Of a stretch of 64,000 bases of DNA, positions 19,931 through 47,149 are shown piece by piece. The notes below the pieces were generated by a model. That model was not told the origin of the DNA. It did no database searches and saw only the letters and a program-made list of their open reading frames with translations. A program made the position numbers and the translations under genes. How positions within the stretch are numbered: the stretch's first letter is position 1; each line of letters begins with the position of its first letter. The stretch is from Glycera tridactyla (Eukaryota), in NCBI GenBank assembly GCA_965644265.1, contig OZ286459.1:52080001-52144000 (forward strand), written 5' to 3'.

Positions 19931-19964
19931 AAAAGGTTACTGGAGCCGGCAGTAGTATATAGTG

Positions 19965-20857: not shown

Positions 20858-20858
20858 A

Positions 20859-20928
<70 letters not shown>
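20858..20928. repeat. (CA)n microsatellite
   Basis: Direct reading. Further (CA)n tracts lie at ~23671-23710 and ~23997-24052. Confidence 0.97.
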
Positions 20929-20974
20929 ACCCACTGTAGGAAATAAAATTTCAGATGTGTGTCATGATGAGCAC

Positions 20975-23994: not shown

Positions 23995-24031
<37 letters not shown>

Positions 24032-24369
24032 ACACACACACACACACACATACATGTAGCTGTGATGTTATGATAGAAATTGAAAAACAAAGAAAAAAAA
24101 TATATTTAGAATTTTTAATATCATCATATATTTTATACAATCAAATATCAAATTCTATGTCGAATATGATGATGAACTTGTTGGGACTCGTCTGCAGAAA
24201 TTGACACATACATCAGGAAAAGACGACCAAGACTGCAGAAACTGTTGGATATTATTACCACAAGACTGTCAGCGGTGCTAGAGTTGATTCGAACACATAT
24301 ATGTACGTACAAAATATTATTGAATCAAATATTAATGCTATTTGCGACAAAGCATATTTGAAATAAGTT

Positions 24370-27340: not shown

Positions 27341-28078
27341 ATGCCCTCGTTGTTATGTATATGTATATGTATATATTTATGTGTGTGTTCAGGATCAATG
27401 AAAGTTAGATGTTCTGTCCTTCTGCAGACATCACTTACATGAATCTAGAACACGAGATGATGAAGGAACTTGAAAATGTTGTCGAGTGGAAGTAACTAAT
27501 AGTTTAATCGAAAACCTATCAGTTATCTACACTTGAGGACTATTTCGCTGAAGAAACAAGAATATATAGAGAGAGAGAATAGATGTGAAGAAAAAGAAAT
27601 CAAATGATAGTGTGATTTTGTAAGGAAATACCTAAAGATAGATTTATAGAGAATTTCACAGGTATGATTTTTTCATTTGGATTTCCCCACCCCCTTCTGA
27701 AAACTATTGAGAGTATAGAGAGAGAAGGGGTGATATTACAATTTAAGCTATATCACCCCTTGATGGCAACACTTGAAAGTGAATGACCCACGCCCATCGG
27801 TGGTCACCATCAATAGAAAAACCCTGGACTCCCACCACATCTCACAGACAATATGAACAGAATATAAATAAAATTACATATATATATACAATCAAACATT
27901 CCTCAAACTATATTCGTGCTATAGGAAATACAATCAATAATCAATCCTCAAAACTATATTCATGTTATAAGAAATACAATTAATAAAAAAACATTTCAGC
28001 AGAAAAGGACATTTGCTTGTGACTTACTACCTGAAGAACAATAGAACTACCGAGAAATCAGTTCCAATCATTATCCCA

Positions 28079-28537
28079 TCATTGGTGCATGGTGAGAGAT
28101 GATTGAGTTGTGTTCTTGCACCACAACTCCACCATGAATGGCTCGGGATCTTCTTCCGCGGGCAGTTTTACATCCCACCACGGAGCGTCTCGTTGCATGA
28201 GTACCACATACGGTTGCGATTTTATGCAACTAACATGACGCTCGTAATGGACGGGGATGTATTCTGGGAATAATAGCTGGATTTCCCACTTCGCACGATC
28301 GGCCACCAATTCCTCGCTAGCATTCCTTCGTTCTTCAGGTGTAAGCCACGGGTAGGTACATTCAGTGATACACCAGTCTAGGTCGCTGAGGTCGGTTGCT
28401 TCGCGGGCTTGTTAAACTTGTTCGCACGTAAACAGGGACACGTAACCGACCACTGTCTCGATCGCCGAGGAAACACATTTGGGGACGAATGGTACAAACA
28501 CTCGAGACACGTAAGCAGGAAGGAAGGCCTGAGACAT
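28079..28537 (-). pseudogene. Maverick terminal orphan ORF (152 codons, one internal TAA)
   Basis: ATG at 28537 (MSQAFLPAYV...), TAA at 28412-28414 (codon 42), then in frame with track ORF 28079..28309. It is preceded by TTGTTCTCTTTTTACAG. Confidence 0.55.
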
Positions 28538-28568
28538 TATGAGCTGTAAAAAGAGAACAAATTTTGGC

Positions 28569-29480
28569 TTACAGAACAGTATAACCACTTGTTCTGTCTT
28601 CTTCCAATGAATCCATCAAACAAATATTACGATTTCCTCTATATTCATGGAGGAAATCAAATATTTTTCGTTGATTGAATTCACAGTGAGAACATGGAAG
28701 ACAGCGACAAAGATTTATACATGACTTGCAAGAGTGAATGCAAAAATCCCCAGGCAGGTGTAAAATTCTAGCATTACAAACTAAACAGAGGTTCGTTTCT
28801 CGATTGTGAAACTGTTCAAATGGAAGATGACTGGCATAATAATTGGTATATCTAAAAATAAATTTGACTGGTACTGCACAAATCAATTTGGTTTCTTCGA
28901 AATATGGGAGGTAATGCAATGTATTCAGTGGTGGTTCTAATTTGCGATTAGACGTGCCAGTCAAAAGAATTTTATATGTTTGATTCTGATGAGAGAGTCT
29001 GATGTCTCTCATCAACACTTGCCAACATAAAAAAAAAAGACTGGCCTTCGGTAGAGGACTTTCTTCTACTATAAAATTGAAGTTAGTAGCCAGAACCAAT
29101 CCTTCGATTCTGAGTTTAAACAAGTACAAAAAATATTGGAAGTCGTGCAATTTTCGATTCAATGAAGGAGAATCCACGATGTCATACATCTTGTTCAATG
29201 TACTTAGAATTTCATATATTTGCTGATAGCTGACCCTTGCCCAATGATCAACTTCAGCAATTGATTGGCAATCGTTAACATTTTGGTAGACACAGAAATT
29301 AATGACAAAACTCACACACTGTTCCAGGTCTGTTAATCGGAATGAGAGTAATGATTTCTTCAGCTGGTGGGCGAGGAGACAGATACTGACCTTCAAACAG
29401 ATAGAAAAGTCTTTGCGGGTCGGCATCGAGTACCCGTCTTTGGAGGTAACCAAGATGATTTTGAATGCCAGACAGGTCAA
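28569..29480 (-). CDS. Maverick accessory protein, ~290-300 aa, BC-box-like motif and C-terminal Cys-rich motif (paralog A)
   Basis: Open 303-codon frame (first ATG 29426) containing SLFFLCWQVL and DFCIHSCKSCINLCRCLPCSHC. Its start overlaps the protease stop. Confidence 0.8.
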   Translation of the reverse strand: MTCLAFKIILVTSKDGYSMPTRKDFSICLKVSICLLAHQLKKSLLSFRLTDLEQCVSFVINFCVYQNVNDCQSIAEVDHWARVSYQQIYEILSTLNKMYDIVDSPSLNRKLHDFQYFLYLFKLRIEGLVLATNFNFIVEESPLPKASLFFLCWQVLMRDIRLSHQNQTYKILLTGTSNRKLEPPLNTLHYLPYFEETKLICAVPVKFIFRYTNYYASHLPFEQFHNRETNLCLVCNARILHLPGDFCIHSCKSCINLCRCLPCSHCEFNQRKIFDFLHEYRGNRNICLMDSLEEDRTSGYTVL

Positions 29481-30010
29481 GATTTATTGCCAAATTTCTG
29501 TTCATATTTTTTGTGAAAATATGATCGCAGTTGAGAAATTTGCTTTCTCACAGATAGTATATCAAATTTTTCTAAATTAACATTATAAGTTTGCGAAGTG
29601 AACAACGCCACATACACATCTACATTTTGTTTCTGAGCTAAAATTTCTAATATTTCGCTATGGCTCAATCCTCTAGCGTACTGGGTGATATGATAGACAC
29701 AATAATGTCCACAAACAGAAGAATAAAATTGTTGAAATTGATCAGTACTATAATCGTAGCTGGGTGCTAAGAAGATTTCAAACTCCTCAAATAGTGGAGG
29801 TAAACCATAACTATCAAAATAGAAATTCTGAGAACTATGATCGATGATACAGACAATCCAATGTGTACCCGAGTCACCTGTTTTATCCGTATTGAAAACA
29901 TAAGCCCCGTCCTCACATGCAAGTTCAGCGTCCCGAGGGAATACACCTTTGAAAACACGGGATACTGTACTGTTACTATTGAGCAATGCACTAATTTGTC
30001 TGTTGTTCAT
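29477..30010 (-). CDS. Adenain-type cysteine maturation protease
   Basis: FKGVFPRD, GTHW (His), FDSYG (Asp) and QQFYSSVCGHYC (Gln/Cys). The ORF is intact; likely ATG at 30010. Confidence 0.95.
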   Translation of the reverse strand: MNNRQISALLNSNSTVSRVFKGVFPRDAELACEDGAYVFNTDKTGDSGTHWIVCIIDHSSQNFYFDSYGLPPLFEEFEIFLAPSYDYSTDQFQQFYSSVCGHYCVYHITQYARGLSHSEILEILAQKQNVDVYVALFTSQTYNVNLEKFDILSVRKQISQLRSYFHKKYEQKFGNKS

Positions 30011-30015
30011 TTTTT

Positions 30016-31430
30016 TCAATCATCAATTATGACACCTGTTTTGTCCAATTCCAAAATGTCGTCCATCTCGCAGTAGGCAATCAAGGTAGCACTTGTGGTG
30101 GTGTTAGCTGCACATTTGATTTCGACTGACACGGTTCCCTCGTGGAGAAGATTGAGCGAGCTGCAATTGGGTAATCCAAGATCAAATGCATACAGACACA
30201 TGCAGACACGGTTCCCTCGTGGAGAAGATTGAGCGAGCTGCAATTGGGTAATCCAAGATCAAATGCATACAGACACATGCCGTTGGGGTAAGCACTCGGT
30301 GACATCTTGATGCCTGCATCTTTGTAGAGAATTCCCGTGCATTGCATCAGCGATAAATAAGCTTGCATATAACAGTCTTCGTCGTAATCCATGGACAGAC
30401 ACTGGAAAGGGACGGTCAGCCCATCAACTCTCAACACTAACAAGCTGACTTTGAAATGCTGAAAATTAAATGGAGAATGTTGGAACGAGCCGGAAAAAGC
30501 AGAACTTTCAACGATGCCTAGAACGATTCTTCTAGGGATGATTCCGTTGATCAAATTGGCCTCACTCAAATCACTTGTTCCGCTATTCCTACTATACCAA
30601 CGCACTCTGGTGCGCTTGATTTCTTATAGGTGGGGTTGTGTTTGAAGCTGTTTGGTGAGTGCTTCTAAAACGTGAGAAGATATTTCGCAGTGAGGTACTT
30701 TCAGTTGAGCATCGCTTATTTCTATCTTGAAATTGGTATGACTATCTGATTTGCACATCAGCGAGAAAGCGTTATCGGCACAATGGAGAACGATGAGTAT
30801 CTCTGTGTTGTTAGGTAGGAGTTTATCTTGATTGAACAATTCGTGGTGTATTTGCCCAATTGTTTCAAATGTAGTTGAATATTGAGTTTTTTTGAATCTG
30901 GCCACAGCTCCTTCCCCCGCACCCGGTGATTCCAAAGCAACATCTCTCTCGTCGAAATCGCCAGTATCTTGGTAAAACATACCGGCAGCTAGAGTGTGAT
31001 CTTTTGCATCTGCGCCGTGTGATGGTGGAGCTTCGAAATAAGCTTTGTATGGGTACATGGTTTTGCTCACCCCAATTTGTCGACCATTGACAGCAATTTA
31101 GATGTTCTTGAACTGAGTGGCATGAATGTAACATATGGGGTGAACAAGGGATTGATCTGTCAGTGTAGCATCTGCAGCAGGTGCCGCGATGTCATTTCCG
31201 TTTGTCTTTATGATTTTCATTTCGAGATACAGGACGACATGGCGTAGATCAACAAAATCTGTATCTCCAGAAATGATGCGAAATTGTATGGGGCCTCCTC
31301 TGTCGAGAGACGTCAACGGATGATAATCTCTATAGTGTACTTTCAATATGCTAGTCTGAGTTGGTGGGATGCTGAATAAATTCAACTCGGGTCGGGGACA
31401 TTCTTGCGAACATTTGTGCATGAGACTCAT
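30016..31430 (-). pseudogene. Double-jelly-roll major capsid protein (hexon-like), disrupted
   Basis: ECPRPELNLFSIPPTQTS...GPIQF, MYPYKAYFE, IPRRIVLG...PFNFQHF, YAFDL. One frame runs 31430-30281 with TAA at 31098-31100 and 30624-30626. A 77-bp tandem duplication (30128-30203/30205-30280) frameshifts the C-terminus. Confidence 0.95.
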
Positions 31431-31439
31431 GATGACGCG

Positions 31440-31845
31440 CTAATCCAAGATGTCTTCCACCACGCGTCGCCGTTTTGATCTTCTCGAAGTTTGAGACGGT
31501 TGATTTTTTGCGTTTACGAGTCTGTTGTTTCTTCGAAGTCGTTTTTTTCTTCCTGGTCTTTTGTATTAGGTTGTCCACCGTATCCAGACCTAATTCGATG
31601 GCTCGTCTCGTGATTTTACTGCGCACACCTTGGTTCAGTCCGACTTTCTTGGTGATTTGTCCGAGAAGTTTAGTTGCCTTGGGTTTTATTAGGGGACCTG
31701 CGATGTTCCACATCGTGGACAATATCCTCGACCCGAGTCCGCTTCCTCGCTGGTATAATTCCCCCTGAAAATAGGGAAGAGCATTCCCTTCAGCATAATA
31801 ATTCTGGTAAAAGTTTTTGTCTGGGGTGTAACCACATTGTCTCAT
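31440..31845 (-). pseudogene. pVII/PM-like basic core protein
   Basis: YYAEGNALPYFQGELYQRGSGLG plus a K/R-rich tail. Removing one A from the A6 run (~31504-31509) gives the end RRSKRRRVVEDILD* with its stop at 31440-31442, 9 nt before the MCP ATG. Confidence 0.75.
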
Positions 31846-32632
31846 ATTGCCGTGGGTCTTTGACGAAGGTGTAGTTTCACGATGATTTTTCCAAACTTGA
31901 ATGGGATGATGTCTCCCTGATTGTCCGCAATTTTGATTTTGATGTGTATTACGTAGCTTTGTATTAGCGGTACATAATGGGGACTGTCAAATATCATATT
32001 CTGGTATGACAAGATACCTACAGTGGAATCGAGAGTGACGGTTTTCAATAGAGGTGCATAGACCCCGCCCACCACTGAGTTTTTCACAATGTTCGAGTAG
32101 ATGTATATATTGTGAAGTGAAAGATCTAGGCAGGCCACGTGACCGGCATGGACAGTTGTGTATCGGTGATTTGCAACCCAGCGCGTACGATCAAGATCAT
32201 CATGATGTGTAAATCCAAGTTTTCGATGCAGGGCGGATTTCAACAGGATTTTTTCACCATTATAAACTTTACAACCGACTTTTCTATTGAATTCGTTGAA
32301 AACAAGCCTGCTTCATATCCCCCCCCCCATTTATTCTGATGATATCATTCATCTCGGATAACAGTTTGGGGATGGACTCATAAAATATGAGAATCTAGAG
32401 TTCTTTTCCTTACGCCACGACCTAGAGTGACTGCTATCTCATTTTCCGATTCGGTCACATTATACCAGGTGCGAGGGAAAGCAAATTCGACCAATGCACA
32501 TTCCCACAGCCCATTGGTGAAATCAAGAGTTTCTGGTATGATAGTATGATAATGCCCGATCATGTTTTCGCTGTACTCGTTTGACCTTACATTTGAAGGA
32601 AGGGTGATGTACATATGTTTCAAAGTCGCCAT
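31842..32632 (-). pseudogene. Minor capsid (penton, single jelly-roll), frameshifted
   Basis: MYITLPSN...WECALVEFAFPRTWYN (32378..32632) and IYIYSNIV...YAPLLKTV...FDSPHYVP...IPFKFGKIIVKLHLR (31842..32243). At least two frameshifts lie between ~32290 and 32390, and that interval includes a C10 run. Confidence 0.9.
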
Positions 32633-33174
32633 TTCGCCCATTTCAATCTGCCTTTGCCTGTTTGACTTTCTGATTTCTTTCGAGAACTTTTGCGGGGAAA
32701 CCAACTGGAGGGAACACCAATATCTAGTAATGCCTCCTCAATTCTTTCAGATGCTATAGGCACATCTCGTCCACTCGTGACCACTTTGGTGTTCAACAGA
32801 TATTGTAGTATATCTAAGATGTTGGTGTTCGGTAGTAATTTGTCGTTGAGAACTACTTCATAATTCTCATTCCATCTGATGGACTCTGATGGACTCTGGG
32901 TGACGATTTTGATGATGCTGTCCACCATGGGATGATGATGACTCGGTGTATGAGATAGGATGTCTTCTGCAAATGGTATGGTGTCTGTTGTGGTATGGGG
33001 CTGTTTGAGACGGTCTTCTCTCGTTCTTTTCCTCATCAGCTTTTGTTGATATAACATCATTTTTTTACTGGATGGTAATTTCTCATCGAGCAGTATGTCT
33101 TCTTCCGTTTCTTTGGTGAAATTACATTTTTCAAACACCGATAGTGGGATGATGACACTTTCGGCAAAGCTCAT
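32620..33174 (-). CDS. Conserved Maverick hypothetical protein (WNxxxEV...NIxD...L..IGVP motif, PW/PZ-type)
   Basis: Intact 184-aa ORF with IRWNENYEVVLNDKLLPNTNILDIL and ALLDIGVPSSW. Its ATG overlaps the upstream stop (ATGA). Confidence 0.75.
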   Translation of the reverse strand: MSFAESVIIPLSVFEKCNFTKETEEDILLDEKLPSSKKMMLYQQKLMRKRTREDRLKQPHTTTDTIPFAEDILSHTPSHHHPMVDSIIKIVTQSPSESIRWNENYEVVLNDKLLPNTNILDILQYLLNTKVVTSGRDVPIASERIEEALLDIGVPSSWFPRKSSRKKSESQTGKGRLKWAKWRL

Positions 33175-33470
33175 CTTCGCAATGTGTGCTTCAACATGCG
33201 TTTCACTAGGCGAATTTTTTTCTTTATCAGCAATCTCCTCATACGTGAAGAAATGTTTTCATCGATCACAGCCGGCAATGTAGTCCGAGATTGTTTGAGC
33301 TGGCGTATTAGACTCTTTGGTATGGGAACATTCCCAATTAGGATGTTATATATACACACGCACAAGGCCTCAATATGTTCTTTGGATCCACACTCGATCA
33401 AGTCTTTAGTTTTCTGTACAGATTTGGTAACGTGGACTAAAGCAACAAATGGACGTGTACACAAGTTCAT
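33171..33470 (-). CDS. Small basic pX-like protein, paralog lacking the QxGG tail
   Basis: 99 aa with LIECGSKEHIEALCVCIYNILIGNVPI, which is similar to the N-half of 35168..35512. ATGA overlaps occur at both ends. Confidence 0.7.
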   Translation of the reverse strand: MNLCTRPFVALVHVTKSVQKTKDLIECGSKEHIEALCVCIYNILIGNVPIPKSLIRQLKQSRTTLPAVIDENISSRMRRLLIKKKIRLVKRMLKHTLRR

Positions 33471-34122
33471 TGTAGGGGGCTATGAACTAACTGATACTGA
33501 GGGTTGAATATATCCGAACGAAAACGTGCCTCGGCACAATGTCTTGTGTACCATCGATAAATAACATCCCGTGTGGCTTATTGGTGGCGGCATTGTATAT
33601 ATGCATGAAAGTTTTGATGTCCTGCGGCATGATTTTCAAGCCCAGCAAATATGCCACGCTCCTATCCAGGGGGTTGTTGAAGAGAACCCAATAGTGTGCT
33701 GATTTAGTGATGGTTTTCCGCTGTTTGCCCTCCGAAAATATATTTTGCGTGATGAGAATCACTCCGACTTTTCTATGGTGTGATTGACGCGTGAATAATT
33801 TGGCAACGGCTTGGGAAGACCCCGCTTCGGCATACAAATCGTCCAGCACGATGAGTGTCCCAAAAACGCGGTATTCCTCAAAACTCGTGGGGAGACCTTT
33901 CACCGTTTCAATAAATGAACCGTAGGCTGCATGCAGGTAGACAATGTTGTCGCTCATTTCTCCATAAAACCAGACTACTTTTTTCAGAGGAGTGTCGATC
34001 AACCTCGGAGCATGTTCTATGAGCTCGCATACCCAAGTACTCTTGCCAGATTGGCTCGGTCCACCAATGACTAGAGAAAATGGGAATTTGAGTTGGGCGT
34101 CAAAGACGTTGAAATTACTCAT
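33467..34122 (-). pseudogene. A32/FtsK-family DNA packaging ATPase, frameshift near the 3' end
   Basis: Walker A GPSQSGKST, Walker B IVLDD, SHHRKVGVILITQN. ATG at 34122 overlaps the integrase stop. A frameshift near 33540 hides the ending EARFRSDIFNPQYQLVHSPLQ* whose TGA overlaps the next ATG. Confidence 0.93.
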
Positions 34123-35083
34123 CGACTCGGCTGAGTTCTGCAGCATAAAATGGCCCCACAATTGTATCACCTGTGGGATCGATCAGTTCATAGGTGAAAG
34201 GATTTGTCGGTAGAACTTTCAGAATTCGAAACACTTCTTTGGTGAATGTCTGAGTGTATCCACGAGTGAAAACATAGCGATATCTGGCAATTCTCACGCG
34301 ATCTCCGGCTTTGTACTTGGAAGTGTTTAAATCCACCAAGCGAGGATGTTTGCCGTAATGCTTTTCAAAAATCTGGTGCTGGTTCTTTTTGGTAACTTTT
34401 GCGGGGGCAATCTCAATGCTCCGATGTTTTCTGGAATTATAGGTGTCAACAATTTTATCCAGCACTCTCCAATATGATGTGGTGTCTTTGGCAGTGAAGT
34501 ATTTATACATGATATTTTTCAGTGTGCGGTTCAATCTTTCAACTAATGCAGCTTTTTCCACGTTCAAAGTTGAGTAATGTACAATGCCTTTCTTCTGAAG
34601 GAGAGACTTGAACAGTTTGTTGTAAAATTCTCGACCTCGATCCGTCTGTATTTTAACAGGTTTTTGTTTGCTTTTTGCCAAAAGTTTCTTGAATCCATGC
34701 ACTACATCACTGGCACTTTTTATTCTGAGAGGAACAACGTGAGCTAACCTTGACAAAACATCGATTTTCACGAGCAAAAATCGATAATTCCTATTGGTTT
34801 TAGCTAGCGTACTCACATCAACCAAGTCCAATTGCCACAGGTAGTTCACATGTTTAGCATAAGTTTGTCTGCGTGGGAATTTCTTGATGGCGGGTCGATG
34901 CAGGGTGTAGGAGGGTTCACTCTCTAGGAATTCTTGAATTTCCCGTCGAGTCAAGCTTTTGAAACGTTTCTTCCCCCACCGGTAAAGGCGATCTGGTGAA
35001 GAAAAAGCAGCAGCATTTCCAATTTGATGGTACAGCGTCCTCAGGTGTATCCTCTTCTTGTCGCTCAAAACCATCTGGTGCAT
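34115..35083 (-). CDS. Retroviral-like (RVE, DDE) integrase
   Basis: WQLDLVD, IQTDRGREF, VERLNRTLK and SH3-like YKAGDRVRI. The 322-aa ORF is intact with no C-terminal chromodomain. Confidence 0.97.
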   Translation of the reverse strand: MHQMVLSDKKRIHLRTLYHQIGNAAAFSSPDRLYRWGKKRFKSLTRREIQEFLESEPSYTLHRPAIKKFPRRQTYAKHVNYLWQLDLVDVSTLAKTNRNYRFLLVKIDVLSRLAHVVPLRIKSASDVVHGFKKLLAKSKQKPVKIQTDRGREFYNKLFKSLLQKKGIVHYSTLNVEKAALVERLNRTLKNIMYKYFTAKDTTSYWRVLDKIVDTYNSRKHRSIEIAPAKVTKKNQHQIFEKHYGKHPRLVDLNTSKYKAGDRVRIARYRYVFTRGYTQTFTKEVFRILKVLPTNPFTYELIDPTGDTIVGPFYAAELSRVDE

Positions 35084-35167
35084 CTAATGCAGAATTGCAA
35101 CAGGCATATTTGCAAGAAACGTTCAATTGGATAGCCTCTTTCAAACAACAACAGCAATCTTTCGCAT

Positions 35168-35512
35168 TCATTTTCGTGGCCGTTTTTTACGTTTGCGATT
35201 CTTCTTAGCAAATGCACCTGCGATGGCTTTTATGGCTAGAGGGGCTAATGCTCCCACGATTGCACCGATGAATCCACCACTCTGTAATCGAGCCTGTTTC
35301 TCTCTCAAGTTACGTGGGCACTTTCTCGTCTGCTTGAAATATTTCTTCAGTCTATTCCGATTGCGAGATATATCACCTTTGAAAATTTTTTCTGCACAGT
35401 TCCAAATAAAATTGATGAATTTATCGTCTGTTTCATTGACAAACTCCTTCATTCGTTTCGGTGAAGATTTTGATAGGGCGTGAATGACGCGGGCATTGGT
35501 GTTGAGTGACAT
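35168..35512 (-). CDS. pX/protein-VI-like virion protein with protease site and amphipathic helix
   Basis: 114 aa: LQSGG followed by FIGAIVGALAPLAIKAIAGAF and a basic tail KKNRKRKKRPRK. Confidence 0.8.
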   Translation of the reverse strand: MSLNTNARVIHALSKSSPKRMKEFVNETDDKFINFIWNCAEKIFKGDISRNRNRLKKYFKQTRKCPRNLREKQARLQSGGFIGAIVGALAPLAIKAIAGAFAKKNRKRKKRPRK

Positions 35513-36127
35513 TTACACTTTGTTGATGTCTTCAGGCCAAATGATGGGCACAAAGACGACTCGATTTTTCAGAGTGTCATTGACTGCTTGAATGATCGGG
35601 GGGATTTTCAGGCGTCGGGTATATTGGCGCTGAGCTCTCAGTTTGGCGGTGGTTGCAGCAGTAGCAGTAGCACTAGTTACTCCCGACGAAGTTGTTATAG
35701 CTGTAATTTCTGATGAAGAGGATTCCGCTGTTGCGTTGCTACTCTTTCTAGCTTCTGAAGATGTGCTTGGTTTAGGTGAAGCAGTTTTCCTCATCTTCTT
35801 TGCTGGAGGTTTTATGATTTCTTCTACTTCTTCTTCCGGCGGGGAGCTATCGCTATCGCTCAGTTCTTTCATTTCCACCACGTCTTCTTCCTCCTCTTCT
35901 TCACTGCTGGAGTGAGAACGTTTCTTGATGTTCTTGCGTTCTTTAAGGTATTTCCTATGGCAAGCATTACACCTACGCGAGTTCAGTGTATAGTACTTGC
36001 TCGGCATCAGTCTTTTACATCGAATGCATTCTTGACCTTTAGCTTGGCACTTGGTACAATAAGCCTTTCCCGACACTAGTGGGTAGTTGGGGTCGGCACA
36101 CCAGATGCAACAATAGGGTGGACTCAT
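35513..36127 (-). CDS. Zn-finger (4 x CxxC) protein with acidic tract and NLS; putative regulator
   Basis: CIWC, CTKC, CIRC, CNAC, then EEEEEED, PPAKKMRK and a Ser/Thr-rich region. ATGA overlap with dNK. Confidence 0.75.
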   Translation of the reverse strand: MSPPYCCIWCADPNYPLVSGKAYCTKCQAKGQECIRCKRLMPSKYYTLNSRRCNACHRKYLKERKNIKKRSHSSSEEEEEEDVVEMKELSDSDSSPPEEEVEEIIKPPAKKMRKTASPKPSTSSEARKSSNATAESSSSEITAITTSSGVTSATATAATTAKLRAQRQYTRRLKIPPIIQAVNDTLKNRVVFVPIIWPEDINKV

Positions 36128-36753
36128 TTTCGGGTGATGAACTGCACGACGTTCTCCAAAAGTTCTTCAAGATCTTGAAAATGATCCGATAGTTTCACAG
36201 GTGTCTCGACAGCGTCCAAGTATTCCCTGTAAGAAGTAGAAAGATTTTCAAGATATTGTCTCTTCACAAATTCTACTTCACCGGCTCGATCACGATGTTC
36301 AATGCGTTTTAGGCAAGTGTCGATGTCGGTAGACAGGTAATATATGCCATCCACATCCAAGTCGAGATTTGCGAAACACTCTTGCAATACGTCCAACAGT
36401 AAATCGCGGGCAAAAGTCGACAAATACCCTTGGCAATATAGGGTGTTGGTGAAAATAATAGGAGAAGTGTGAAACCGCTCGGTCACAATTGTCTGTTCGC
36501 TGCTCCAGAGTTCAGCTTGCACATGATAGTATTGAGCTAGAGTTCTACAAATATGCAACTGGGAACAAACAGCATACTTCTTCGGGTTTTCTTGCAGAAG
36601 GGAGAATACTTGGTGATCGCGGAAATGTTGAAAAAGGTGTGCCGGCTCTGTAATAAACCTGTACTGAGGATCGTGCTTAAGAGCGTTTTTCAAACGTGCC
36701 AGAAGGTAACTTTCGCCGGCTCCAATCAATCCTTCTATGACGTACACCTTCAT
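36124..36753 (-). CDS. Deoxynucleoside kinase (dNK family); P-loop Lys replaced by Glu
   Basis: VIEGLIGAGESY (canonical IEGxIGAGKST), TERF, YLSTDIDTCLKRIEHRDRAGE (lid) and YLENL. Confidence 0.88.
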   Translation of the reverse strand: MKVYVIEGLIGAGESYLLARLKNALKHDPQYRFITEPAHLFQHFRDHQVFSLLQENPKKYAVCSQLHICRTLAQYYHVQAELWSSEQTIVTERFHTSPIIFTNTLYCQGYLSTFARDLLLDVLQECFANLDLDVDGIYYLSTDIDTCLKRIEHRDRAGEVEFVKRQYLENLSTSYREYLDAVETPVKLSDHFQDLEELLENVVQFITRK

Positions 36754-36756
36754 TTA

Positions 36757-37174
36757 TCAGTCCAACGATCCGAATCCATCACAACCTCTTTCGCTTTTAT
36801 TCAATGACCTTTTCAATGAAAAATGAACTTTTTTCTGATAGGGTTTGATGATTAGTTGCGCAAATTTCCTACCAGCACTGACAGTAGTAATTGCCGTTGA
36901 AGACAGGTTATGTAGAATAATGCATATCTCACCTCGATAATCGGAATCTATGATTCCGCCAACAACGACCAACTGTTGCAATGCAAAACTCGATTTCAAG
37001 TTTACCATAAAATCCTTCGGAAATAGCAAGAGCAACACCAGTTCTCAAACAACGAGTTTTGTTCAGCTTTAGACTTGTGGTCTCTATACAATAAAAATCA
37101 AATCCCGCCAAATTTTCAGTCACTCGAGTTGGCACTTTAGCCTTTGGATGATTAAGTACAATGTCCACCTCCAT
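36757..37174 (-). pseudogene. dut: Trimeric dUTPase, frameshifted in motif II
   Basis: AGFDF (motif I), TGVALAISEGFYGKL, GIIDSDYRGEI (III), FAQLII (IV) and RGCDGFGS (V), split between ORFs 36929..37174 and 36757..37038 at ~36995. Confidence 0.93.
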
Positions 37175-37467
37175 TAATCGCTTTTGCTAGTGTCGGAGCT
37201 GAGGCTTGAAGCAGACGAGAAGAGTGCGGCATCGTCTTTCTTCGATTTTTTGACAGTGGATTTGGTTTTCTTGGCTTTCTTCATGAGGCGTTTACTTTGC
37301 TTCAGTACCTTGGGCATCTTCTCTTTCAATTTCAAAAGTTCCTTGTGGCTGAGCGAAATAGACTTGTTCCTAATGCTGTCTCCGAAATGGTACCATACTT
37401 GATTTCGCCACAAGGCTTGCGTCATGGTCCTATTACGCCCAAGTTTCAGCGTGTATTGGTTGGCCAT
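37174..37467 (-). CDS. PC4/Sub1-like ssDNA-binding protein
   Basis: LGRNRTMTQALWRNQVWYHF...KSISLSHKELLKLKEKM aligns by eye with the PC4 core (IGKMRYVSV...KGISL..EQW..LKE). Likely ATG 37467. Confidence 0.65.
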   Translation of the reverse strand: MANQYTLKLGRNRTMTQALWRNQVWYHFGDSIRNKSISLSHKELLKLKEKMPKVLKQSKRLMKKAKKTKSTVKKSKKDDAALFSSASSLSSDTSKSD

Positions 37468-40400
37468 GGTGTGTCCTTGTGCCAATACGGAAGCGTTGTT
37501 ACACCATCACCTAGTATGAAACGTTTATCATCATGCGGGTTGAGACATGTTTTACATGAGTAGACGGTGTAGACTTTGTGACCGTAGCTGCGAATACTAT
37601 GTATCCCGTGGGATAAATAGCGTTTGTTCACCAGACATCACCTATACCGTGCATGAGTAGTGAATGCCAGTGCATGTTTTTTAACACCTTTAGCATGTTT
37701 TTTAGCAGTTTGAGCATATTTGACTGAATACACTTTCGATTTCAATCCTACAAATTCCTCAGGAATTTTAGGGGGTGAAAACTCGTCTTGAAACAAACCA
37801 GGAACTTTAGCATTAACACCACAATAAAGTGGGTGGTCTTTGGGGAAATTTGATGTATCTAAATGAGACCAGAGATCTTTGAGATCTTTGTACATATCAG
37901 GTGTTTCAACATGATAGAGAAATGAATCAGTATCGGTGAAACAAAGTGAAACTTTGGACCCAAATTTTGGTAGTACAACTTCGTAATGAAATTTGTACAT
38001 GTGAAGTTTAGAGAGTTCTAAAATACTATAGCCTATTGCCACTGGACGATTCAACACGAGATTTTTCTGAGCAAGATGGACACCGACTAAATTCTGATTG
38101 AATACCCGAACCCTCTTCAATTCGGGTTGTCGAACTAGTTTATCAAATACTTCCGCATGACACACCAATTTGATCTTCTGCTGCTTTTTCACATTCTCGA
38201 TGAATTTTCCAAAAGTAGCATTAGTAGCAAGCTTATAATAATTTTTCTCAAACATATTTGTAGCAGCACTCCGTAGCAAAGCATTGAAATCAACAAAATC
38301 TTTCAAAAATCGACTCTGTTTCAACTTCAAAACCTTGTTGATTTTCGAGTCCCATCTTCAAATAAAATTGAAGATTGAGATAGTGTACTACATAATTCTT
38401 TTTGTCCATCACATTTGGAATCAATTTAGCCAATTTGCTGTTGCCCATTTTCAAACTCCTCGCCATTTTGAGACTGCAAGACGATTTCATATCTTTACGC
38501 ACTACAATTTTTTCGGGAGCTAGCGGATATCGAGCATGAGCATCGTGCAGATGAGTTGGATAGTGAAGGTCCACGTCGAGTATGAAACCAACTCTATCAT
38601 TTTCACTCAATATTTCAACATCGAACTCCCGAATTTCATCAGAGGATAACCAAGAAAAACCGCCGACGGGCATCGGATAGTGTGCCATGGTGTATGAATA
38701 CAACCCATTCGCATCAACAAACCACAGGTACGATTCTGGTAAATTTGGATCGAAAGTTTCTGGCAAATATCTGTTATTAGCGGTCGCCAGCCTTTTCGAA
38801 ACTACGCTGATTCCACCTCGAATGCCAGATTCTATCATGTGATATTGTTCCATGTCACTCAAACATTCTATTGCCACACCGGTGGATTTCAAACATGCGT
38901 CTAACGCCAAACCAGGAGTGCTCAGATATTTAGCCGGATCTAAACTGTACGCCTCCATGCTAACATGCCGATGATTTTCAAAAACGTCGGCTAGTAATGC
39001 CACATCGGATTTGAGATAAACATCATGAAAGTCACCTAACGTCTTACAATCAAAATGCCGGTAGATGTCCCAAGCATATGCATAATCTGCATCAGAAATG
39101 TGTTGACCAGTGAGAAGATTATATAAATCTTCTTTGGGTGGCAAACCTACTTCATCGAATTGTGAATGATGTTTGATGTAGTTATATGGATATATTCCTT
39201 TGCGTAAAACATGTTCTAGATTATTTGAACCTACCAAATTCCGAGTATGGACAAATTTGTCGACACCTCGAGTGAGCAAATTTTTCACGTGGGTGTCCAA
39301 AGAGGCCGGCAGGAACTCGAAAGTGTCTTTGAACCAAAAGTCGTTCAACACAAAGCCCATGTATCTCTCCATGTTTTTGTGGATGATCCTACAAGACTTA
39401 CTACTGTACAGAGGTGTCTTATGTAAATAAGACAATAGGAAATGCGAATCATAATTAGTGAGTGCATGAAAAAAAACAGGGATTTTTCCATAGACACTCA
39501 CCACGTTCATGTTACAATGCATGCACGCAACACCGCGATAGTTACTTTCTAACGTGGGATCGCCAAAGTGCGCATGATCTCGACATTTCTGTGAAGGATG
39601 ATCAGGGATTTTCTTGCAATACTGGCAACGAGTTTCGAACTGGAAATTTGCTTCGTCTTCCTCTCTCATTTTTAATGGTTGTGCCAGGCGCCTTTTGATG
39701 AATCTGATTTCCATCCGTTCATGCACCAGACATTCAAAGAAATGTTTCATGACATTCTTTCCGCGATAGCATACCACGGCGGTGGTATAATTGCTGTCGG
39801 TGCACACACAAATTGTGGCAAACCCCGTTGGAATGTGTTGAGAATGTAGAATGGTTTTGGGGCCTTTAGACCGATTTATGACCTTATTTCGCGTCTCCAA
39901 GTCGGCATAGATGCAAAATTCGGCAGGAATGGTATTTCCAACATTCTCAAACTGTAGTCGATAGCCCGCATCGGGAATTCGGTATGAGGACTGGGGGTTT
40001 GAGCCTGTGTTAAAATTTTTGGCAATGTGGTTGAAGTAAATTTCCAGACCACGAAATTTGGAAAGACATTTTGAACAGACATATTGTTTATTGCCAGTCG
40101 TCTGTTCAACTAGCCGAGACAAATCTCTAATACAGAAATAATGATCATCATGCAATAGCAAATTGCATATGTGTGTCACCTGATTCTCATTTCCAGAATG
40201 ATAGATTTTTCGCATTTTATCTGTGTAATCGAACACATTAATGCTCAAGTGTGGGTTGTCTTTCTCAAAATCTGGTATCGATTCGATGGCAACAGGAAAA
40301 TGAAGATTGGACACGTCAAGTTTTTGAATGGTGGCTAAGTACTTGTGGTGTCGAGAAGGATGAGCAGCTCGACAGAAATTGTTTATAGCCGCGGCAATGC

Positions 40401-40913
40401 TATACAGGAAACAGCGTTCGTCTGTATTGTTGATACTCAAAATAGCCTGCCTTCTTTTCAAACTTGGTGGTAACAGCACACCAAAACACCCACCGGAAAG
40501 TGTTTTCACAACTCTAACAACAATCAATTGTATATTGATAATTTTATCGATCATCCATCCACTACCTTCACTCACATAACTATCGAGATGAAGTTGGATT
40601 TCTTCAAATGCATCATCGACCGACTGGTTGATAGTACGATTAGTACACACATAGCGCATACTACTCAAAAATTGAGCCATTTGTTTTATGAGCTGATCCG
40701 ACTCGATGTCGAGCCTTTTCATTCTGATGGTGCATCTTACCTGGAATTTAAATGTTGAAAGTATTTTGCGTTGAATATATGTGTCAGTCTTCAAGCTATT
40801 TTTGGACCAAACACCGAACTGGAGACATCCAAATCACGATGAATTTTAGCTTTTGGTTTGAAGTTGAAGACAGCATGTCTATCTTTCATACGTAATAGCC
40901 TATCAATCTTCAT
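37446..40913 (-). pseudogene. polB: Protein-primed family B DNA polymerase
   Basis: ExoI IYADLET, ExoII FHALTNYD, ExoIII YLKSDV; PolA DANGLY, PolB KLATNATFGK, PolC TDTDS; C-terminal DDKRFIL. Frameshift at ~38343, TGA at 37638-37640, and a probable further frameshift at ~40800-40835 after ATG 40913. Confidence 0.96.
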
Positions 40914-41828
40914 CTTGATCGAATGAACACGGGTTATGCAAAGCACTATATCTGTCAGTTAAAGAAGCTAAACGAACATAATAACAGTAAGGATGAGATA
41001 ACCTACACGGGGACAGGTTGACAAATTTCTCAAGTGCTCCGATTTCAGGCAGACAGGCTTGACATGGTTTGCAATAACAAAATGCCTGACATTTTGAAGT
41101 ACAATGTAAACAAAAATCTCTATACAAAGATGTGGATCTTAATTCACAACTGAAATATTTTGGCCTACCAAAATAATCTACCAAATGGTTCTCGCTCCAT
41201 TCATCTATGATGATTTGATATGGACAGGTTGAAATGACTGAATCCAATGATATGAAAGGTACTTTTTTCAAAACAGAAATAGGTGGATCCGAATGCCGAT
41301 CAATCTCGGTTTTCAATACTACCTTCAAGAAACGGTCCGTATCGTACTCATCCAAAGTGGTCAAAAATATTTCTAAAGCACAACTTTTCAGAGACGGTAC
41401 AGTTTTACTTGGAATAGTATTCAAGGAAATATGCTCAAACGCTTTTCTCCCTACAATTCTCAAAGCTTTGTGAAACTGTTGATCACTGAGGGTGTACAGT
41501 ATTTGAGGCCACTCGGGTTCGAATCCCCAGCTAAGTAATGTGTTGATATCTGAAAAACTGATGTAACAGTCCATTTGGCCCACCCACAAGCTCCACCACT
41601 GGAGAATATCGTAAATCTAAACTGATTTTTTTGAAGTAATTCATATGAAGCGAGTGAGTGTTTCATGCAATATGCTCTTAGTGGGTTCAAATAGATACGT
41701 GCGAAACAATTGAATAGTTTTTGTTCGTCATACTCTAACACGTGCTTCAACAGGTGAGGTAATCTAGTTCTAATACTATACTGATATGTGTGCTGTTCCA
41801 TCACAAATAGAATTTCATTTGGAAGCAT
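40903..41828 (-). pseudogene. Maverick accessory protein paralog B (BC-box-like plus Cys-rich), split by frameshift and TAG
   Basis: ORFs 41460..41849 and 40903..41589 joined near an A7 run (~41626-41632), with TAG at 41617-41619. It shares motifs with 28569..29480. Confidence 0.7.
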
Positions 41829-42312
41829 TACATATTTCTGAGATGCCAAAACTGTGTGATACTTTCGAATTAGGTCAGAAACCTCGAATAAGGTTGACCT
41901 ATTTCATCACTACAAACCCTCCCCTCCCTGATTCAGAAAAAGAACATTATGTGTTTCATCTAGAAGCATATAATGTCCCTACACAAAAGTTTATAGATGA
42001 GCAGGAGACGATGTGGCGATCTGAAACAGAACATACGAATCATATAACATACCACCCTACCACTAGAATTGAAAAACCAAAAACTAACTAACAGACTGAA
42101 ATTAAATTCAATAGTCTCTCAAAAATGGAACTACAGTCAGACCTGCCCCCTCCTCACAACAGGTGTATGTTAAATCGAACTCTGGTGGAATGGATACAAT
42201 ATGGATGCTCAAGAAAAGTTCTTACTTTGAGCAGGTTTGACTGTTATACTGAATTAGCTTATGCATCATTAATTGTTTCTGTCGATGATGTCAAATTGAA
42301 TATCACATAGTG

Positions 42313-42344
<32 letters not shown>

Positions 42345-43859
42345 CATATAAGACCAACATTCATATTTCCAATCAGCAACGACTAACAGATCAAATTAAT
42401 TGTTTTACACCAAATAGGGGTATGACATGTGAACACAACATCTACAAATCACTAGCAAACTTTAGAGTGAAAATTGAAGTCCATCAACCAATGATAATCT
42501 AAAATAACATTATAGTTTCACTTTTATTGCTAAAGTCAAAAAGAGGTAAATGACACCATCCATTTTAATTGAACTGATCTGAAATGAACTACAGTATCAG
42601 ATAATTACCTCGAGTAGACACCTTTCAAATGTTGCACTGTGAGAAAACCTAGGTATGATGATGATGCTTGTTCTAGATGGGGTAGTTTACAACAACCTAA
42701 AAGATTAAATGAAGACTGGTTAGTCGTATAAACCCCTCCCCAGAGTTGAGGGGAAGTGATATTGTTGACACTCTTTTGAGCTAACTGATTTGCTTATAAT
42801 AACAGAAGGGAGGAGGCAGTGGATTTCCAGTGTAGACAAGTTGATTTTGGAATTCATCAGTCTGAGGGGGGGCCAGTCGGTACTTTTTTTCGCAACCTGA
42901 CTCGAAGACAAATTCAAACAAACACACACTCAAAATAAACTCGTCTAGTATCCAAGCAGGAACAAACATACACAGAACAGGGTATACTGGTATCAAAGAG
43001 AGCACACATGCATAAAACTTAATCCAAAAAAACTAAATGAATAGCAAGCTGACAGACTCCATAGCATTTTTGGTTAAAGATCCTTGTTAGGACCTAATTG
43101 CTAGATGCCAGAATGTCAAAGTCATCCATTGTGATGAATACTGGTTTGCAGCTGGTATTCATGATGATGTTAAACAAAATTCACACACACACACCCCTGA
43201 ATTAACACATTCGACATTGAAACAAGCTCAGAAAGAGACATACAGGGGTACACAAGCATTTGCATGGGTCAAAAACATAATCCAAAAGCAAAGCGTATAC
43301 ACAAGATGAATAAATCATTTCTTAAAAGTCAAAATGTCTGAAGCCAGAATGGCTACCTCCAAAGTTAAAGACAGAACTCTCAAGATTATATGAAGTATTC
43401 TTATTTGATGATTATCTAATCTCAAATAATTAACTCTTGATAGACAACATTTCATGAGAGTAATTGTTATAACTTACTACTTAATTTAAAACTTGCAACA
43501 GCTATGACAACCAATACCATGCAAACAAAATACATCACACTAACATCAACACCAGTTGTAAAAGGATGATGTCACTCACCATCAAATACTAATAAGCAAA
43601 CGTGCAGAGAATCTTGCAGATTCAAACCGACCTCATACTACCAAGCTCTGAAATCATAAGACCCAACAAGCGACTACCTAAATTGTCAAAATAAAATCTT
43701 CCTGAAAAAGCATCATCGGCAATCGTCACCTTCAAAACAAAATGCAACACATGTGGATGCCGACCTTGATAATATCATAATGAAATGTCAAACCTCCCAC
43801 ATTAATTGATTTTTACTGAAAGACAATCAACTGGTATTAGCATTGAAAATAAATCTCAA

Positions 43860-45200
43860 TGACATTGCTGAGCAAACATCCATCAGGCATTGGAAAACAT
43901 CAGCTGGAGCATGAAAGAGACAAGTTCATGTAGGTCATGTCAACTGGGCTCTGATGCACAAAGTCGAACTGCCTGCATAAGAAGAGCAGGCAAGGTTTTT
44001 TCGAACATTCCAAAATTGCCAATTCAATTTCAAACTCGAATCAAATTAAATTCATCATGGACAGTAACAGGCAGAAATTGACACTCTCTAATGCAGGTGA
44101 TTGACTGAAGATCACACTTCCTCCCATCAACATAGACCGGAATATCTCAACTGGTTATGCTAGTAGTGATAGGGGCAGTGTTTTCAATCAATCTCAACAG
44201 AGAGAGTACTGAAAAAATATCCATCATCAGCCGAAAAGAGCCAAGTCCATGTAGCTCCCGAGCATGTGGGCTATGATACACTAAGTCAAACCGGGCCCCG
44301 CATGAGAAGAGCAAGCAAGTGACTTCAATCAATCTCAACACAGAGAGAGTGCTGAGAAAATATCCACGAAAGAGCCAAGTTCATGTAGGTCACGAGCATG
44401 TTGGGTATGATACACTAAGTCAAACCGGGCCCGCATGAGAAGAACAAGCAAGTGACTTCAATCAATCTCAATACCGAGAGAGTGCTGAGAAAATATCCAC
44501 GAAAGAGCCAAGTCCATGTAGGTCACGAGCATGTGGGGTATGATACACTAAGTCAAACTGGGCCCGCATGAGAAGAGCAAACAAGTGACTTCAATCAATC
44601 TCAACACAGAGAGAGTGCTGAGAAAATATCCTTCGAAAGAGCCAAGTCCATGCAGGTCATGTCAACTGGGCTCTGATGCACAAAGTCAAACTGAGAAGAG
44701 AGAGCAGGCGAGGTTTTTCGAACATTTCAAAATTGCCAATTTAATTTCAAACTCGAATCAAATTAAATTCATTAAGGGTGGAAATTCATCTGAGGTGGCC
44801 TCCATGGACAGTGACAGGCAGAAATTGTCACTCTCCGATGCAGGTGATTGACTGAAGATCACACCCCCTCCCACTAATATAGACCGGAATATGCCAAGTT
44901 CCAACTGGTAGTGATCATCAGCTGGGGGCTACAAAAGAGCCGAGTCCATGTAGGCCACAAGTATGAAAAACATCAAGTCAGCTGGGCTATGATGGACTGA
45001 CCTGCATGAGGAGAGCAAGCAAGACTTTCAAACATTTAATAAAAATTGCCAATTTAATTTCAAATTTGAATCAATTTAGGAGATTTATCTGAGAGAAGTG
45101 GTCTCTATAGCCACTAACAACCAGAAGTTGACACTCACCAATGTAGGTGACTGACTGAAATCAACACCAAGTTCATCACCATGTTCAAAACCAAGTCCAC
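43860..45200. repeat. Tandem array: 133-bp unit (~3.5 copies) nested in a ~730-bp duplication
   Basis: gtgacttcaatcaatctcaa at 44319, 44452 and 44585. Segment 43915-44145 recurs at ~44635-44890, with a degenerate third copy to ~45160. Confidence 0.88.
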
Positions 45201-45999
45201 CCTACAAATTTCTCAATTCCAGTCATTCTAACATATTCAAAGTCAGGACAAATTATGAAATTCCAAGTATCATTTAGTCCAGGGATTCACAAACCCCAAA
45301 CACACAAATGCTCACAAAGTAAGACTGTGGGATAGGCCGAGTAAGCATTGTGCTAAGTTCAAAAAAAAAAACCATCATAGCGATTGAAAATAGTTGTTAA
45401 AATTCTAATTATGTATTTCATAAACAAGTGAATGAAATTCATTTCTAATCTCAAAATCATCTATGATGGGCTCAATCCAAATGGAAAACGTTCAGATATT
45501 GTAGTTGATAAGTGCTGGCTGGATCAGAATCTCAAAGTGAGGCATATCCAAAATGGCGGATGGAAATCCAAAATGGTGGATTGTTGACATGAACCAAACC
45601 AAACCAAACCAACCAGGATTCAGCAGATCTTATGTCTGATGCTAACAGCACAAACTTTTACATTTATACTCTTTATAGTTGGATAGCTACATTTTCAGAT
45701 CTACCCTGGAAAACCTACATGCAAGAAAAGCACACGATGCAAGGTTCTACACAGACATCCTAAATTGACAACTTTGGTAGTCACTATAAAATGTTTGGCA
45801 GCTGGTCAATAGATCACCAATCACGAGCTCTCAGAGAGAGGCAGCCAGCCAGCCAGCTGACTCGTGAATTTGGTAGCCATTAGCTACCCTCCAGGTAGCC
45901 TCATGGGAGTCTTGAGGTGAGGGGGGCCCCGATCTCCCTCCGACACCCCTATGGAGGATTCAACCAGATCATCAACAATATAGATTGATACTTACTACA

Positions 46000-47140: not shown

Positions 47141-47149
47141 ATCCTCATC

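What the first reader, a model, noticed from the sequence alone, without database searches (positions are those of the whole stretch)
28569..41828. Two paralogous ~300-aa BC-box/Cys-rich proteins bracket the Maverick core: a candidate viral Cullin-adaptor (E4orf6/Vif-like) system
Seen: the ORF at 28569..29480 and the split gene at 40903..41828 share five ordered motifs: (1) LAHQLKKSL..CV / LPHLLKHVL..CF; (2) QIYEIL / *IYDIL, where TAG is plausibly from CAG; (3) SLFFLCWQVL / SLKSCALEIF; (4) EPPLNTLHYLPYF / DPPISVLKKVPFI, exactly 36 residues after motif 3 in both; (5) DFC[IL]H-x4-C-x3-C-x-C-x-PC-x2-C with identical spacing (28683-28748 and 41053-41118). Established: SLFFLCWQVL fits the ElonginB/C BC-box consensus [APST]L-x3-C-x3-[AILV]; HIV Vif uses the variant SLQYLA; adenovirus E4orf6 combines BC-boxes with Cys/His zinc binding to hijack Cullin-RING ligases. 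Inference: this Maverick may carry a duplicated family of ubiquitin-ligase substrate adaptors, which I do not recognise as a standard Maverick gene.
Basis: partly seen in the sequence, partly recalled or inferred. Interest (0 to 1): 0.85.

Follow-up and report, generated by a model that had tools for sequence, protein, structure and literature searches.

The report
Maverick's paired ubiquitin-ligase adaptor candidates
A virus-like Maverick element in an animal genome carries two related cysteine-rich genes, intact in most of its copies, whose shared helix is weakly predicted to dock onto the host protein Elongin C, so they would likely let the element send host proteins for destruction.

Summary
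The paralogy is real, and stronger than claimed. Naturally open copies elsewhere in the genome give A (313 aa) and B (about 304 aa), 25% identical over 281 columns (E 1e-18). Both show dN/dS near 0.25. In 12 of 17 places examined they sit about 12 kb apart around the core genes.

Motif 1 is mis-paired, motif 2 lies out of frame, and both window copies are frameshifted.

The family is unnamed: 10 hits among 1.84 billion proteins, with no Pfam, PDB or fold match. The BC-box-like helix stays in register at 20-55% identity. The published consensus is met in 6 of 9 lineages and its key leucine is invariant. A complex prediction with Elongin C gave only weak support (0.38 versus best control 0.00).

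Against: no cullin box, a poor score against host SOCS-type boxes, and no homology to E4orf6 or Vif.

Best reading (about 0.5): Elongin BC-recruiting ligase adaptors that work like E4orf6, Vif or ASFV MGF360/505 without belonging to those families.

The parts
19951..47166 (.). Maverick/Polinton element as far as it can be followed in the window. The left end starts with AGTAGT; on the right the homology stops where a reverse-transcriptase ORF (47162-47722) begins, and the right terminus was not found.
   Evidence: Homology with other copies; left end shared with L059; one match to the end motif in the window; AGT-repeat ends described in PMC8097293 passages
28569..29505 (-). Gene A (313 aa in open copies), directly downstream of and overlapping the protease. 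The window copy is broken by a frameshift near 29373.
   Evidence: 16 of 20 fetched loci hold an open 327-codon frame
29013..29042 (-). BC-box-like helix of A (SLFFLCWQVL; residues 157-166 of P0001)
   Evidence: helix 158-168 in the model; consensus form in 17 of 20 fetched copies
28899..28937 (-). Conserved Pro-rich block of A (R-x-L-x-x-P-[IL]-x-x-L-x-x-x-P); not a canonical cullin box
28683..28787 (-). Cys/His cluster of A: CxxC (28776-28787) plus the DFC-x-H...PCxxC block (28683-28748); up to ten ligands, zinc binding inferred
   Evidence: seven Cys/His positions invariant in 9 of 9 lineage representatives
40903..41801 (-). Gene B (304 aa from the Met shared by copies; the window also has an upstream ATG at 41828), directly upstream of the polymerase. 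The window copy is broken near 41557-41570.
   Evidence: 11 of 17 distinct places hold an open 325-codon frame, and one more (L035) is open with a small in-frame gap
41365..41394 (-). BC-box-like helix of B (SLKSCALEIF)
   Evidence: helix 143-153 in the model; identical in 17 of 17 copies
41251..41289 (-). Conserved Pro-rich block of B
41053..41118 (-). Cys/His cluster of B
41602..41619 (-).
29477..30010 (-). Adenain-like cysteine protease
   Evidence: Weak Pfam Peptidase_C5 match, E 0.007, below cut-off
30081..31430 (-). Probable major capsid gene, in pieces (label recalled from Polinton capsid motifs, no Pfam match)
   Evidence: 78% identical to the gene at the same place in L051
33487..34146 (-). 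Packaging ATPase (A32-like)
   Evidence: Weak Pfam Pox_A32 match, E 0.002, below cut-off
34115..35083 (-). Retrovirus-like integrase
   Evidence: Pfam rve, E 3e-11
36124..36753 (-). Deoxynucleoside kinase
   Evidence: Pfam dNK, E 2e-27
37638..40722 (-). Protein-primed type B DNA polymerase, in pieces
   Evidence: Pfam DNA_pol_B_2, E 1e-12 for 38290-40722

Best explanation
A and B are an old, selected pair of paralogous Maverick accessory genes whose proteins likely act as substrate adaptors for host Elongin BC-cullin ubiquitin ligases: the conserved helix is predicted, weakly, to bind Elongin C, the Cys/His cluster would likely bind zinc and stand in for the missing cullin box, and the divergent N-terminal domain would likely pick host proteins for degradation. 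Shown: paralogy, open frames, selection, gene positions, motif conservation. Predicted: helix, domain layout, Elongin C contact. Inferred by analogy only: zinc binding, cullin recruitment, substrate choice, a role against host defence.
For: Published BC-box consensus (PMC4878042 passage) is met in register by 6 of 9 lineage representatives, and a relaxed form by 9 of 9. The leucine is invariant, the preceding proline is kept in 7 of 9, and flanking positions vary. No other window of the alignment exceeds 2 of 9 (published) or 3 of 9 (relaxed); column shuffles reach the observed level in 15 of 5000 and 0 of 5000 (the relaxed pattern was chosen after seeing the data). The motif follows a linker of variable length and forms a helix in both models. 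Complex with an Elongin C that differs from the host's core by one residue: score 0.38 (runs 0.48, 0.37, 0.38), best of 3 controls 0.00, contacts agree at 48% or more, partner pLDDT 31-32. That mark was reached by 51 of 78 solved and 2 of 108 mismatched pairs, but at 0.60 or under by only 5 of 78 solved and all 4 mismatches that passed. dN/dS is 0.23-0.26 between subfamilies for both genes. Precedent: E4orf6 lacks a Cul5 box and Vif uses a zinc motif for Cul5 (PMC3355856 passages); ASFV MGF360/505 are duplicated BC-box adaptors (PMC13769053 passages). The host encodes Elongin C and 126 SOCS-box matches over cut-off.
Against: No conserved cullin box: a Cul2-like match 8-23 residues downstream in 1 of 9 and LP-hydrophobic-P in 0 of 9. 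Against a profile of 29 host SOCS-type BC boxes the viral motif scores -17 to +5, versus a leave-one-out median of 30 and minimum of 5.6; within its own protein it ranks 1 to 31 of about 180-330 windows. Three of 9 lineages miss the published consensus (Asn at the first position twice, Thr at the Cys position once), and a decayed copy in L052 lacks both Leu and Cys. The complex score is in the band that the tool calls more often wrong than right unless the guess was likely beforehand, the partner's fold was poor and no interface was given. pTM 0.75-0.78 suggests one packed unit, so the helix may be buried (burial could not be computed). Many positions outside the motif are equally invariant.
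Confidence: 0.5

Rival explanations
1. The helix is an ordinary core helix with a Pro-Ser/Thr/Asn cap, and A and B are compact zinc proteins of another function, such as regulating the element's transcription or replication; the BC-box likeness is coincidence.
For: pTM 0.75-0.78 for the monomers; no cullin box; low score on host SOCS-type boxes; 7-20% of shuffled A or B proteins hold a BC-like match; the N-terminal YLSP..A and Trp positions are as conserved as the motif; B sits beside the polymerase and A beside the protease.
Against: Only this one window of the alignment keeps the consensus. It starts right after a variable linker. The Elongin C model beat all three controls, weakly.
Confidence: 0.3
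2. The proteins bind Elongin BC but recruit no cullin. They would act as decoys that soak up Elongin BC from the host's many SOCS-box ligases, or use it as a folding and stability cofactor.
For: BC-like helix without a cullin box; the host has 126 SOCS-box matches over cut-off that would compete for Elongin BC; weak complex support concerns Elongin C only.
Against: A decoy would not obviously need a conserved N-terminal domain, a Cys cluster and two long-diverged paralogs. E4orf6 recruits cullins without a Cul5 box.
Confidence: 0.15
3. They are 'Oncoid'-type cell-cycle effectors that bind Rb-family pocket proteins, as proposed for Cys-rich adintovirus genes upstream of the polymerase.
For: B lies directly upstream of the polymerase and both carry CxxC pairs, matching position and one feature in PMC8502044 section 8.
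Against: No conserved LxCxE: only 2 of 17 aligned rows hold an [LI]xCxE-like string, at unrelated places, and neither A nor B does.
Confidence: 0.05

Closest known systems
Adenovirus E4orf6 (CRL5/CRL2 adaptor)
   Same: Accessory protein of a linear dsDNA virus related to Mavericks (relationship recalled), about 300 aa (size recalled), BC-box without a Cul5 box (PMC3355856 passage), Cys-rich (recalled).
   Different: E4orf6 has three BC boxes and needs E1B55K; here one conserved candidate. No Pfam match in 15 members at E up to 10 and no fold match, so analogy only.
Lentiviral Vif (CRL5, or CRL2 for BIV)
   Same: Variant BC box with Ala at the Cys position, as in B (recalled); a zinc motif that helps cullin binding; a Pro-rich stretch after the helix (abstract of PMC3843819 in search listing).
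   Different: Vif's four-ligand zinc motif precedes its BC box (recalled); here a cluster of up to ten ligands follows it by about 75 residues. No sequence or fold match.
ASFV MGF360/MGF505 BC-box adaptors
   Same: Duplicated viral family with a conserved BC box and divergent partner-binding parts, recruiting CUL2/CUL5 (PMC13769053 passages).
   Different: There the BC box is N-terminal and followed by helical repeats, with 10-15 copies per family; here it is central, followed by a Cys cluster, with two copies.
Cellular LRRC58 (CRL2/CRL5 receptor, PDB 9T7V)
   Same: Order of parts: substrate domain, BC box, then a zinc-bound element tied to the cullin-binding region (PMC13156300 passages).
   Different: LRRC58 has leucine-rich repeats and a canonical Cul2 box; no match to it in the PDB sequence searches and no host cellular homolog of the family.
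Adintovirus 'Oncoid' and 'Adintoc' accessory genes
   Same: Cys-rich accessory ORF upstream of PolB (PMC8502044 section 8).
   Different: Oncoids are defined by LxCxE-type motifs, absent here; that paper's main text does not mention Elongin or cullin. Identity with a numbered Adintoc class could not be tested.

Membership tests
BC-box (Elongin BC-binding) proteins | Consensus (S,T,P)LxxxC/S/Axxx-hydrophobic | tested here: met
   A and B both fit; 6 of 9 lineage representatives fit in register; 17 of 20 A copies and 17 of 17 B copies
BC-box (Elongin BC-binding) proteins | Motif forms a helix | tested here: met
   Helix 158-168 in A and 143-153 in B, block pLDDT 79-86; predicted, not solved
BC-box (Elongin BC-binding) proteins | Helix is exposed and docks on Elongin C | tested here: inconclusive
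   Weak support, 0.38 vs best control 0.00, partner pLDDT 31-32, no interface given
BC-box (Elongin BC-binding) proteins | Measured binding to Elongin BC | not testable with these tools
   Needs bench work
VHL-box (CRL2) receptors | Cul2 box (hydrophobic-P-xx-hydrophobic-xxx-hydrophobic) 8-23 residues after the BC box | tested here: not met
   1 of 9 in range, not conserved; absent in A and B (definition)
SOCS-box (CRL5) receptors | Cul5 box LP-hydrophobic-P after the BC box | tested here: not met
   0 of 9; no Pfam SOCS_box match in 15 members
SOCS-box (CRL5) receptors | SOCS-type BC-box profile | tested here: not met
   Scores -17 to +5 against host leave-one-out minimum 5.6 and median 30
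Adenovirus E4orf6 family | Sequence homology | tested here: not met
   No such Pfam family listed for any of 15 members at E up to 10; no named protein among 10 profile hits
Adenovirus E4orf6 family | Shared fold | tested here: inconclusive
   No match at E 0.001 in the viral model library with medium-confidence models
Lentiviral Vif family | Sequence homology | tested here: not met
   No match in Pfam or PDB sequences
Lentiviral Vif family | Shared fold | tested here: inconclusive
   Not listed; the C-terminal halves of the models were barely tested
Adintovirus Oncoid class | LxCxE Rb-binding motif | tested here: not met
   Absent in A and B; 2 of 17 rows with unrelated chance strings
Adintovirus Oncoid class | Paired CxxC and position upstream of PolB | tested here: met
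   B is upstream of the polymerase; CxxC pairs present
Maverick/Polinton elements | pPolB, integrase, ATPase, protease, capsid genes | tested here: met
   PolB and integrase over Pfam cut-off, ATPase and protease weak, capsid by recall
Maverick/Polinton elements | Terminal inverted repeats with target-site duplication | tested here: inconclusive
   Left AGTAGT end found at 19951; right terminus not found in the window

The most novel reading that the evidence does not exclude
Animal Mavericks carry their own, independently evolved family of ubiquitin-ligase hijackers: a protein with no recognised fold that docks on Elongin C, recruits a cullin through a multi-zinc cluster instead of a cullin box, and was duplicated long ago into two adaptors with different host targets. 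That would show Mavericks actively disarm host defences as true viruses do, and their substrates would name the restriction factors that police these elements in an animal germline.
Probability: 0.4. Interest if true: 0.8.

Novelty: new variant of a known kind. Interest (0 to 1): 0.55.

Why it matters
Mavericks are argued to be endogenous viruses mainly from their capsid genes. Counter-defence proteins that hijack Elongin BC-cullin ligases are known from adenoviruses, lentiviruses, rotavirus and ASFV, but my searches found no paper linking them to Mavericks. This family has many young, open, selected copies, two deep paralog clades and outside orthologs, so it is directly testable with one pull-down. 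If it holds, its substrates would reveal how an animal host restricts these elements. Even if the BC-box reading fails, this is an unnamed, conserved viral protein family with no fold match.

Tried and rejected
Searches that found nothing: word-index search with the window's ORF A (0 hits among 314 candidates); viral contigs with P0001 and A2; Pfam for A, B and 15 family members; PDB sequences with two profiles (best E 7.6 and 0.83); ESM Atlas with P0001 whole and P0008 residues 150-290 (no usable hit); Foldseek on viral models (A and B) and PDB (A only).

VIA-align: the top row for both models was vaccinia RNA polymerase chain 6rfl_C (Z 5.5, rmsd 3.6, 92 aligned; Z 5.0, rmsd 5.3, 96 aligned). 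This is below the tool's usual chance level and was not accepted; the C-terminal halves were barely tested.

Expression: no RNA holder listed. Contigs of 4 runs cover coding and non-coding parts alike, so they say nothing on expression.

Host cellular source of the family: none with P0003 or P0008 as query.

An F-box-like start in B (LPNEIL) lies upstream of the Met shared by copies and has no Pfam support; rejected. A likeness of the Cys cluster to NF-X1 or FCS-type fingers (recalled) has no Pfam support; left as a lead. The (AG)n inverted pair at 27562/42303 is not the terminal repeat, since homology continues past both.

Literature: 'cullin' hits in two adintovirus-mentioning papers were the word 'culling'; the third (PMC11702301) was seen as a listing only. 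The supplement of PMC8502044 was cut when stored, so an Adintoc class matching this family may have been missed.

Elongin B and cullins were not included in the complex model.
Full report
SETTING. The window holds a Maverick (Polinton) core on the minus strand: type B polymerase (Pfam E 1e-12), deoxynucleoside kinase (2e-27), integrase (3e-11), a weak A32-like ATPase, a probable capsid gene in pieces (label recalled) and a weak adenain-like protease. Comparison with other copies in the 2.04 Gb host genome shows that the element starts at 19951 with AGTAGT and continues to 47166, where a reverse-transcriptase ORF begins. Genes A and B bracket the core cluster, not the whole element.

CHECKING THE OBSERVATION. 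Of 20 loci fetched, 16 hold an open 327-codon frame giving a 313-residue protein. The window copy has a frame break near 29373 and its start lies at 29505. For B, 11 of 17 distinct places hold an open 325-codon frame and one more is open with a small in-frame gap; the window copy is broken near 41557-41570. I used these natural open copies (P0001 from L006, P0002 from L028) for all further work.

They align over 281 columns at 25% identity, E 1e-18. No shuffle of 2000 reached the score, also when the Cys cluster was left out (z 17.9) or only the first 70 residues were used (z 15.8). Motif 1 is mis-paired and motif 2 is an off-frame translation. Twelve of 17 B copies lie 11.9-12.4 kb from an A copy, four lie 7-43 kb away and one has no A on its contig.

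SELECTION. Pairwise dN/dS between the two subfamilies is 0.23-0.25 for A (4 pairs) and 0.23-0.26 for the last 180 codons of B (4 pairs); the six closer A pairs give 0.16-0.42 and the four closer B pairs 0.17-0.57. The pairs are not independent and no formal test was run, but both genes were clearly under purifying selection.

THE FAMILY. A profile search of 1.84 billion representatives gave 10 hits at E up to 0.001, none named. Two metagenome loci add context: L051 has capsid, protease and an A-like gene in the same order as the window, and L052 has a protease end followed by two decayed A-like genes in tandem. In a tree of 12 rows (fragments P0009-P0012 and near-duplicates left out), A-like and B-like groups each have 100/100 support and each includes outside sequences; the deep branching is unresolved. 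The duplication therefore predates these lineages. The A ortholog in L051 is 50% identical while its capsid piece is 78% identical. Two pairs of hits share a longest-contig length, which hints at paired genes elsewhere but was not verified. No cellular homolog was found in the host.

ANATOMY. Both AlphaFold2 models (mean pLDDT 66.6 and 70.2; pTM 0.75 and 0.78) show an N-terminal mixed domain of about 135 residues, a low-confidence linker, the BC-like helix, a second helix, a Pro-rich extended stretch, a strand and a low-confidence Cys/His region. Seven Cys/His positions are invariant in 9 of 9 lineage representatives; zinc binding is inferred. No fold match was found, with the caveat that the C-terminal halves were barely tested.

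THE BC-BOX QUESTION. For: the published consensus (PMC4878042, passages) is met in register by 6 of 9 lineages and a relaxed form by 9 of 9; the leucine is invariant; the next best window reaches 2 of 9; column shuffles reach 6 of 9 in 15 of 5000 trials. This null ignores helical periodicity. The host has Elongin C, and database protein P0024 matches its core but for one residue. Folding that core with P0001 residues 8-292 gave 0.38 against 0.00 for the best of three controls, with contacts agreeing at 48% or more and partner pLDDT 31-32. The tool rates this as weak: the mark was reached by 51 of 78 solved and 2 of 108 mismatched pairs, but at 0.60 or under by only 5 of 78 solved pairs and all 4 passing mismatches. 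It gave no interface, so it is not shown that the helix is the contact.

Against: no conserved Cul2 or Cul5 box (definitions from PMC3355856, passages). The motif scores -17 to +5 on a profile of 29 host SOCS-type BC boxes, drawn from the best 30 of 129 matches, whose own median is 30. That profile rewards arginines typical of SOCS boxes, so it excludes the SOCS type rather than all BC boxes; I had no set of Cul2-type boxes to test. Three of 20 A copies in the host deviate from the consensus. A capped core helix could give the same pattern.

MECHANISM. The most likely reading (0.5) is a viral substrate adaptor: helix to Elongin C, zinc cluster and Pro-rich block to a cullin, N-terminal domain to a host target, with A and B covering different targets. 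Only the first contact has any computational support; the rest is analogy with E4orf6 and Vif, and with ASFV MGF360/505 and rotavirus NSP1 (PMC13769053, passages). Rivals are a non-ubiquitin zinc protein (0.3), an Elongin BC decoy (0.15) and an Oncoid-type effector (0.05).

RELATION TO WHAT IS KNOWN. It may work like E4orf6 or Vif but fails membership of both by sequence, and it is neither a VHL-box nor a SOCS-box protein. LRRC58 (PMC13156300, passages; lead from earlier scan notes) shares only the order of parts. B occupies the Oncoid position but lacks LxCxE (PMC8502044, passages, section 8 and a supplement search of a cut file). PMC11071296 (passages) names an E4orf6-like gene in a tailtomavirus and does not mention Elongin or cullin. 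PMC8097293 (passages) describes accessory regions flanking vertebrate Maverick cores. Searches for a published Maverick-cullin or Maverick-Elongin link found none: none of the 20 listed of 228 papers held 'BC-box', none of 15 listed of 30 held 'polinton', 0 papers, and 3 papers of which two were 'culling'. Subscription papers are not covered.

VERDICT. A real, selected, unnamed paralog pair with a conserved BC-box-like helix. The ligase-adaptor reading is plausible and testable but unproven. Interest 0.55; a new variant of a known kind.

Noticed in passing
window 36124-36753 (-): The element carries an open deoxynucleoside kinase gene (Pfam dNK, E 2e-27) between integrase and polymerase; not a core Maverick gene as far as I recall.
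   Followed up: no
window about 20000-27300 and 43900-45200: Long arrays of tandem repeats (819, 117/134 and 133 bp units) lie inside both arms of the element and are shared with other copies.
   Followed up: partly
window 46000-46839 (-); L055 3932-5671: Remnant of a 580-aa Ser-rich ORF with a C-terminal Cys/His motif, open in other copies and cut in the window at 47166; a 234-aa ORF lies beyond it in other copies. No Pfam match.
   Followed up: partly
window about 28020-28560 (-); L056 178-657; P0011: A conserved 160-aa ORF follows gene A in other copies (no Pfam match). By eye the first half of P0011 resembles it while the second half is A-like, which may mean a repeated two-gene unit or a mis-called frame.
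   Followed up: no
L052 5499-8292: Two decayed A-like genes in tandem after the protease in another organism's element, so further duplications occur in this family.
   Followed up: partly
G000, 129 places (L061-L090 fetched): The host has 126 SOCS-box matches over the Pfam cut-off, many in open frames of 300-800 codons, suggesting an expanded family of Elongin BC-Cul5 receptors.
   Followed up: partly
window 35513-36127 (-): Another Cys-rich ORF (several CxxC pairs, acidic and Ser/Thr-rich tail) between integrase and kinase; only sub-threshold Pfam zinc-ribbon rows.
   Followed up: partly
window 1039-3389 (-): Gag-like ORF with zinc knuckles and a protease-like ORF, by eye an LTR retrotransposon remnant unrelated to the Maverick.
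   Followed up: no
L055 2-2714 (-): ORFs beside another Maverick copy that look by eye like a cleaved viral envelope or fusion protein with a C-terminal membrane stretch; no Pfam match for the one tested.
   Followed up: partly
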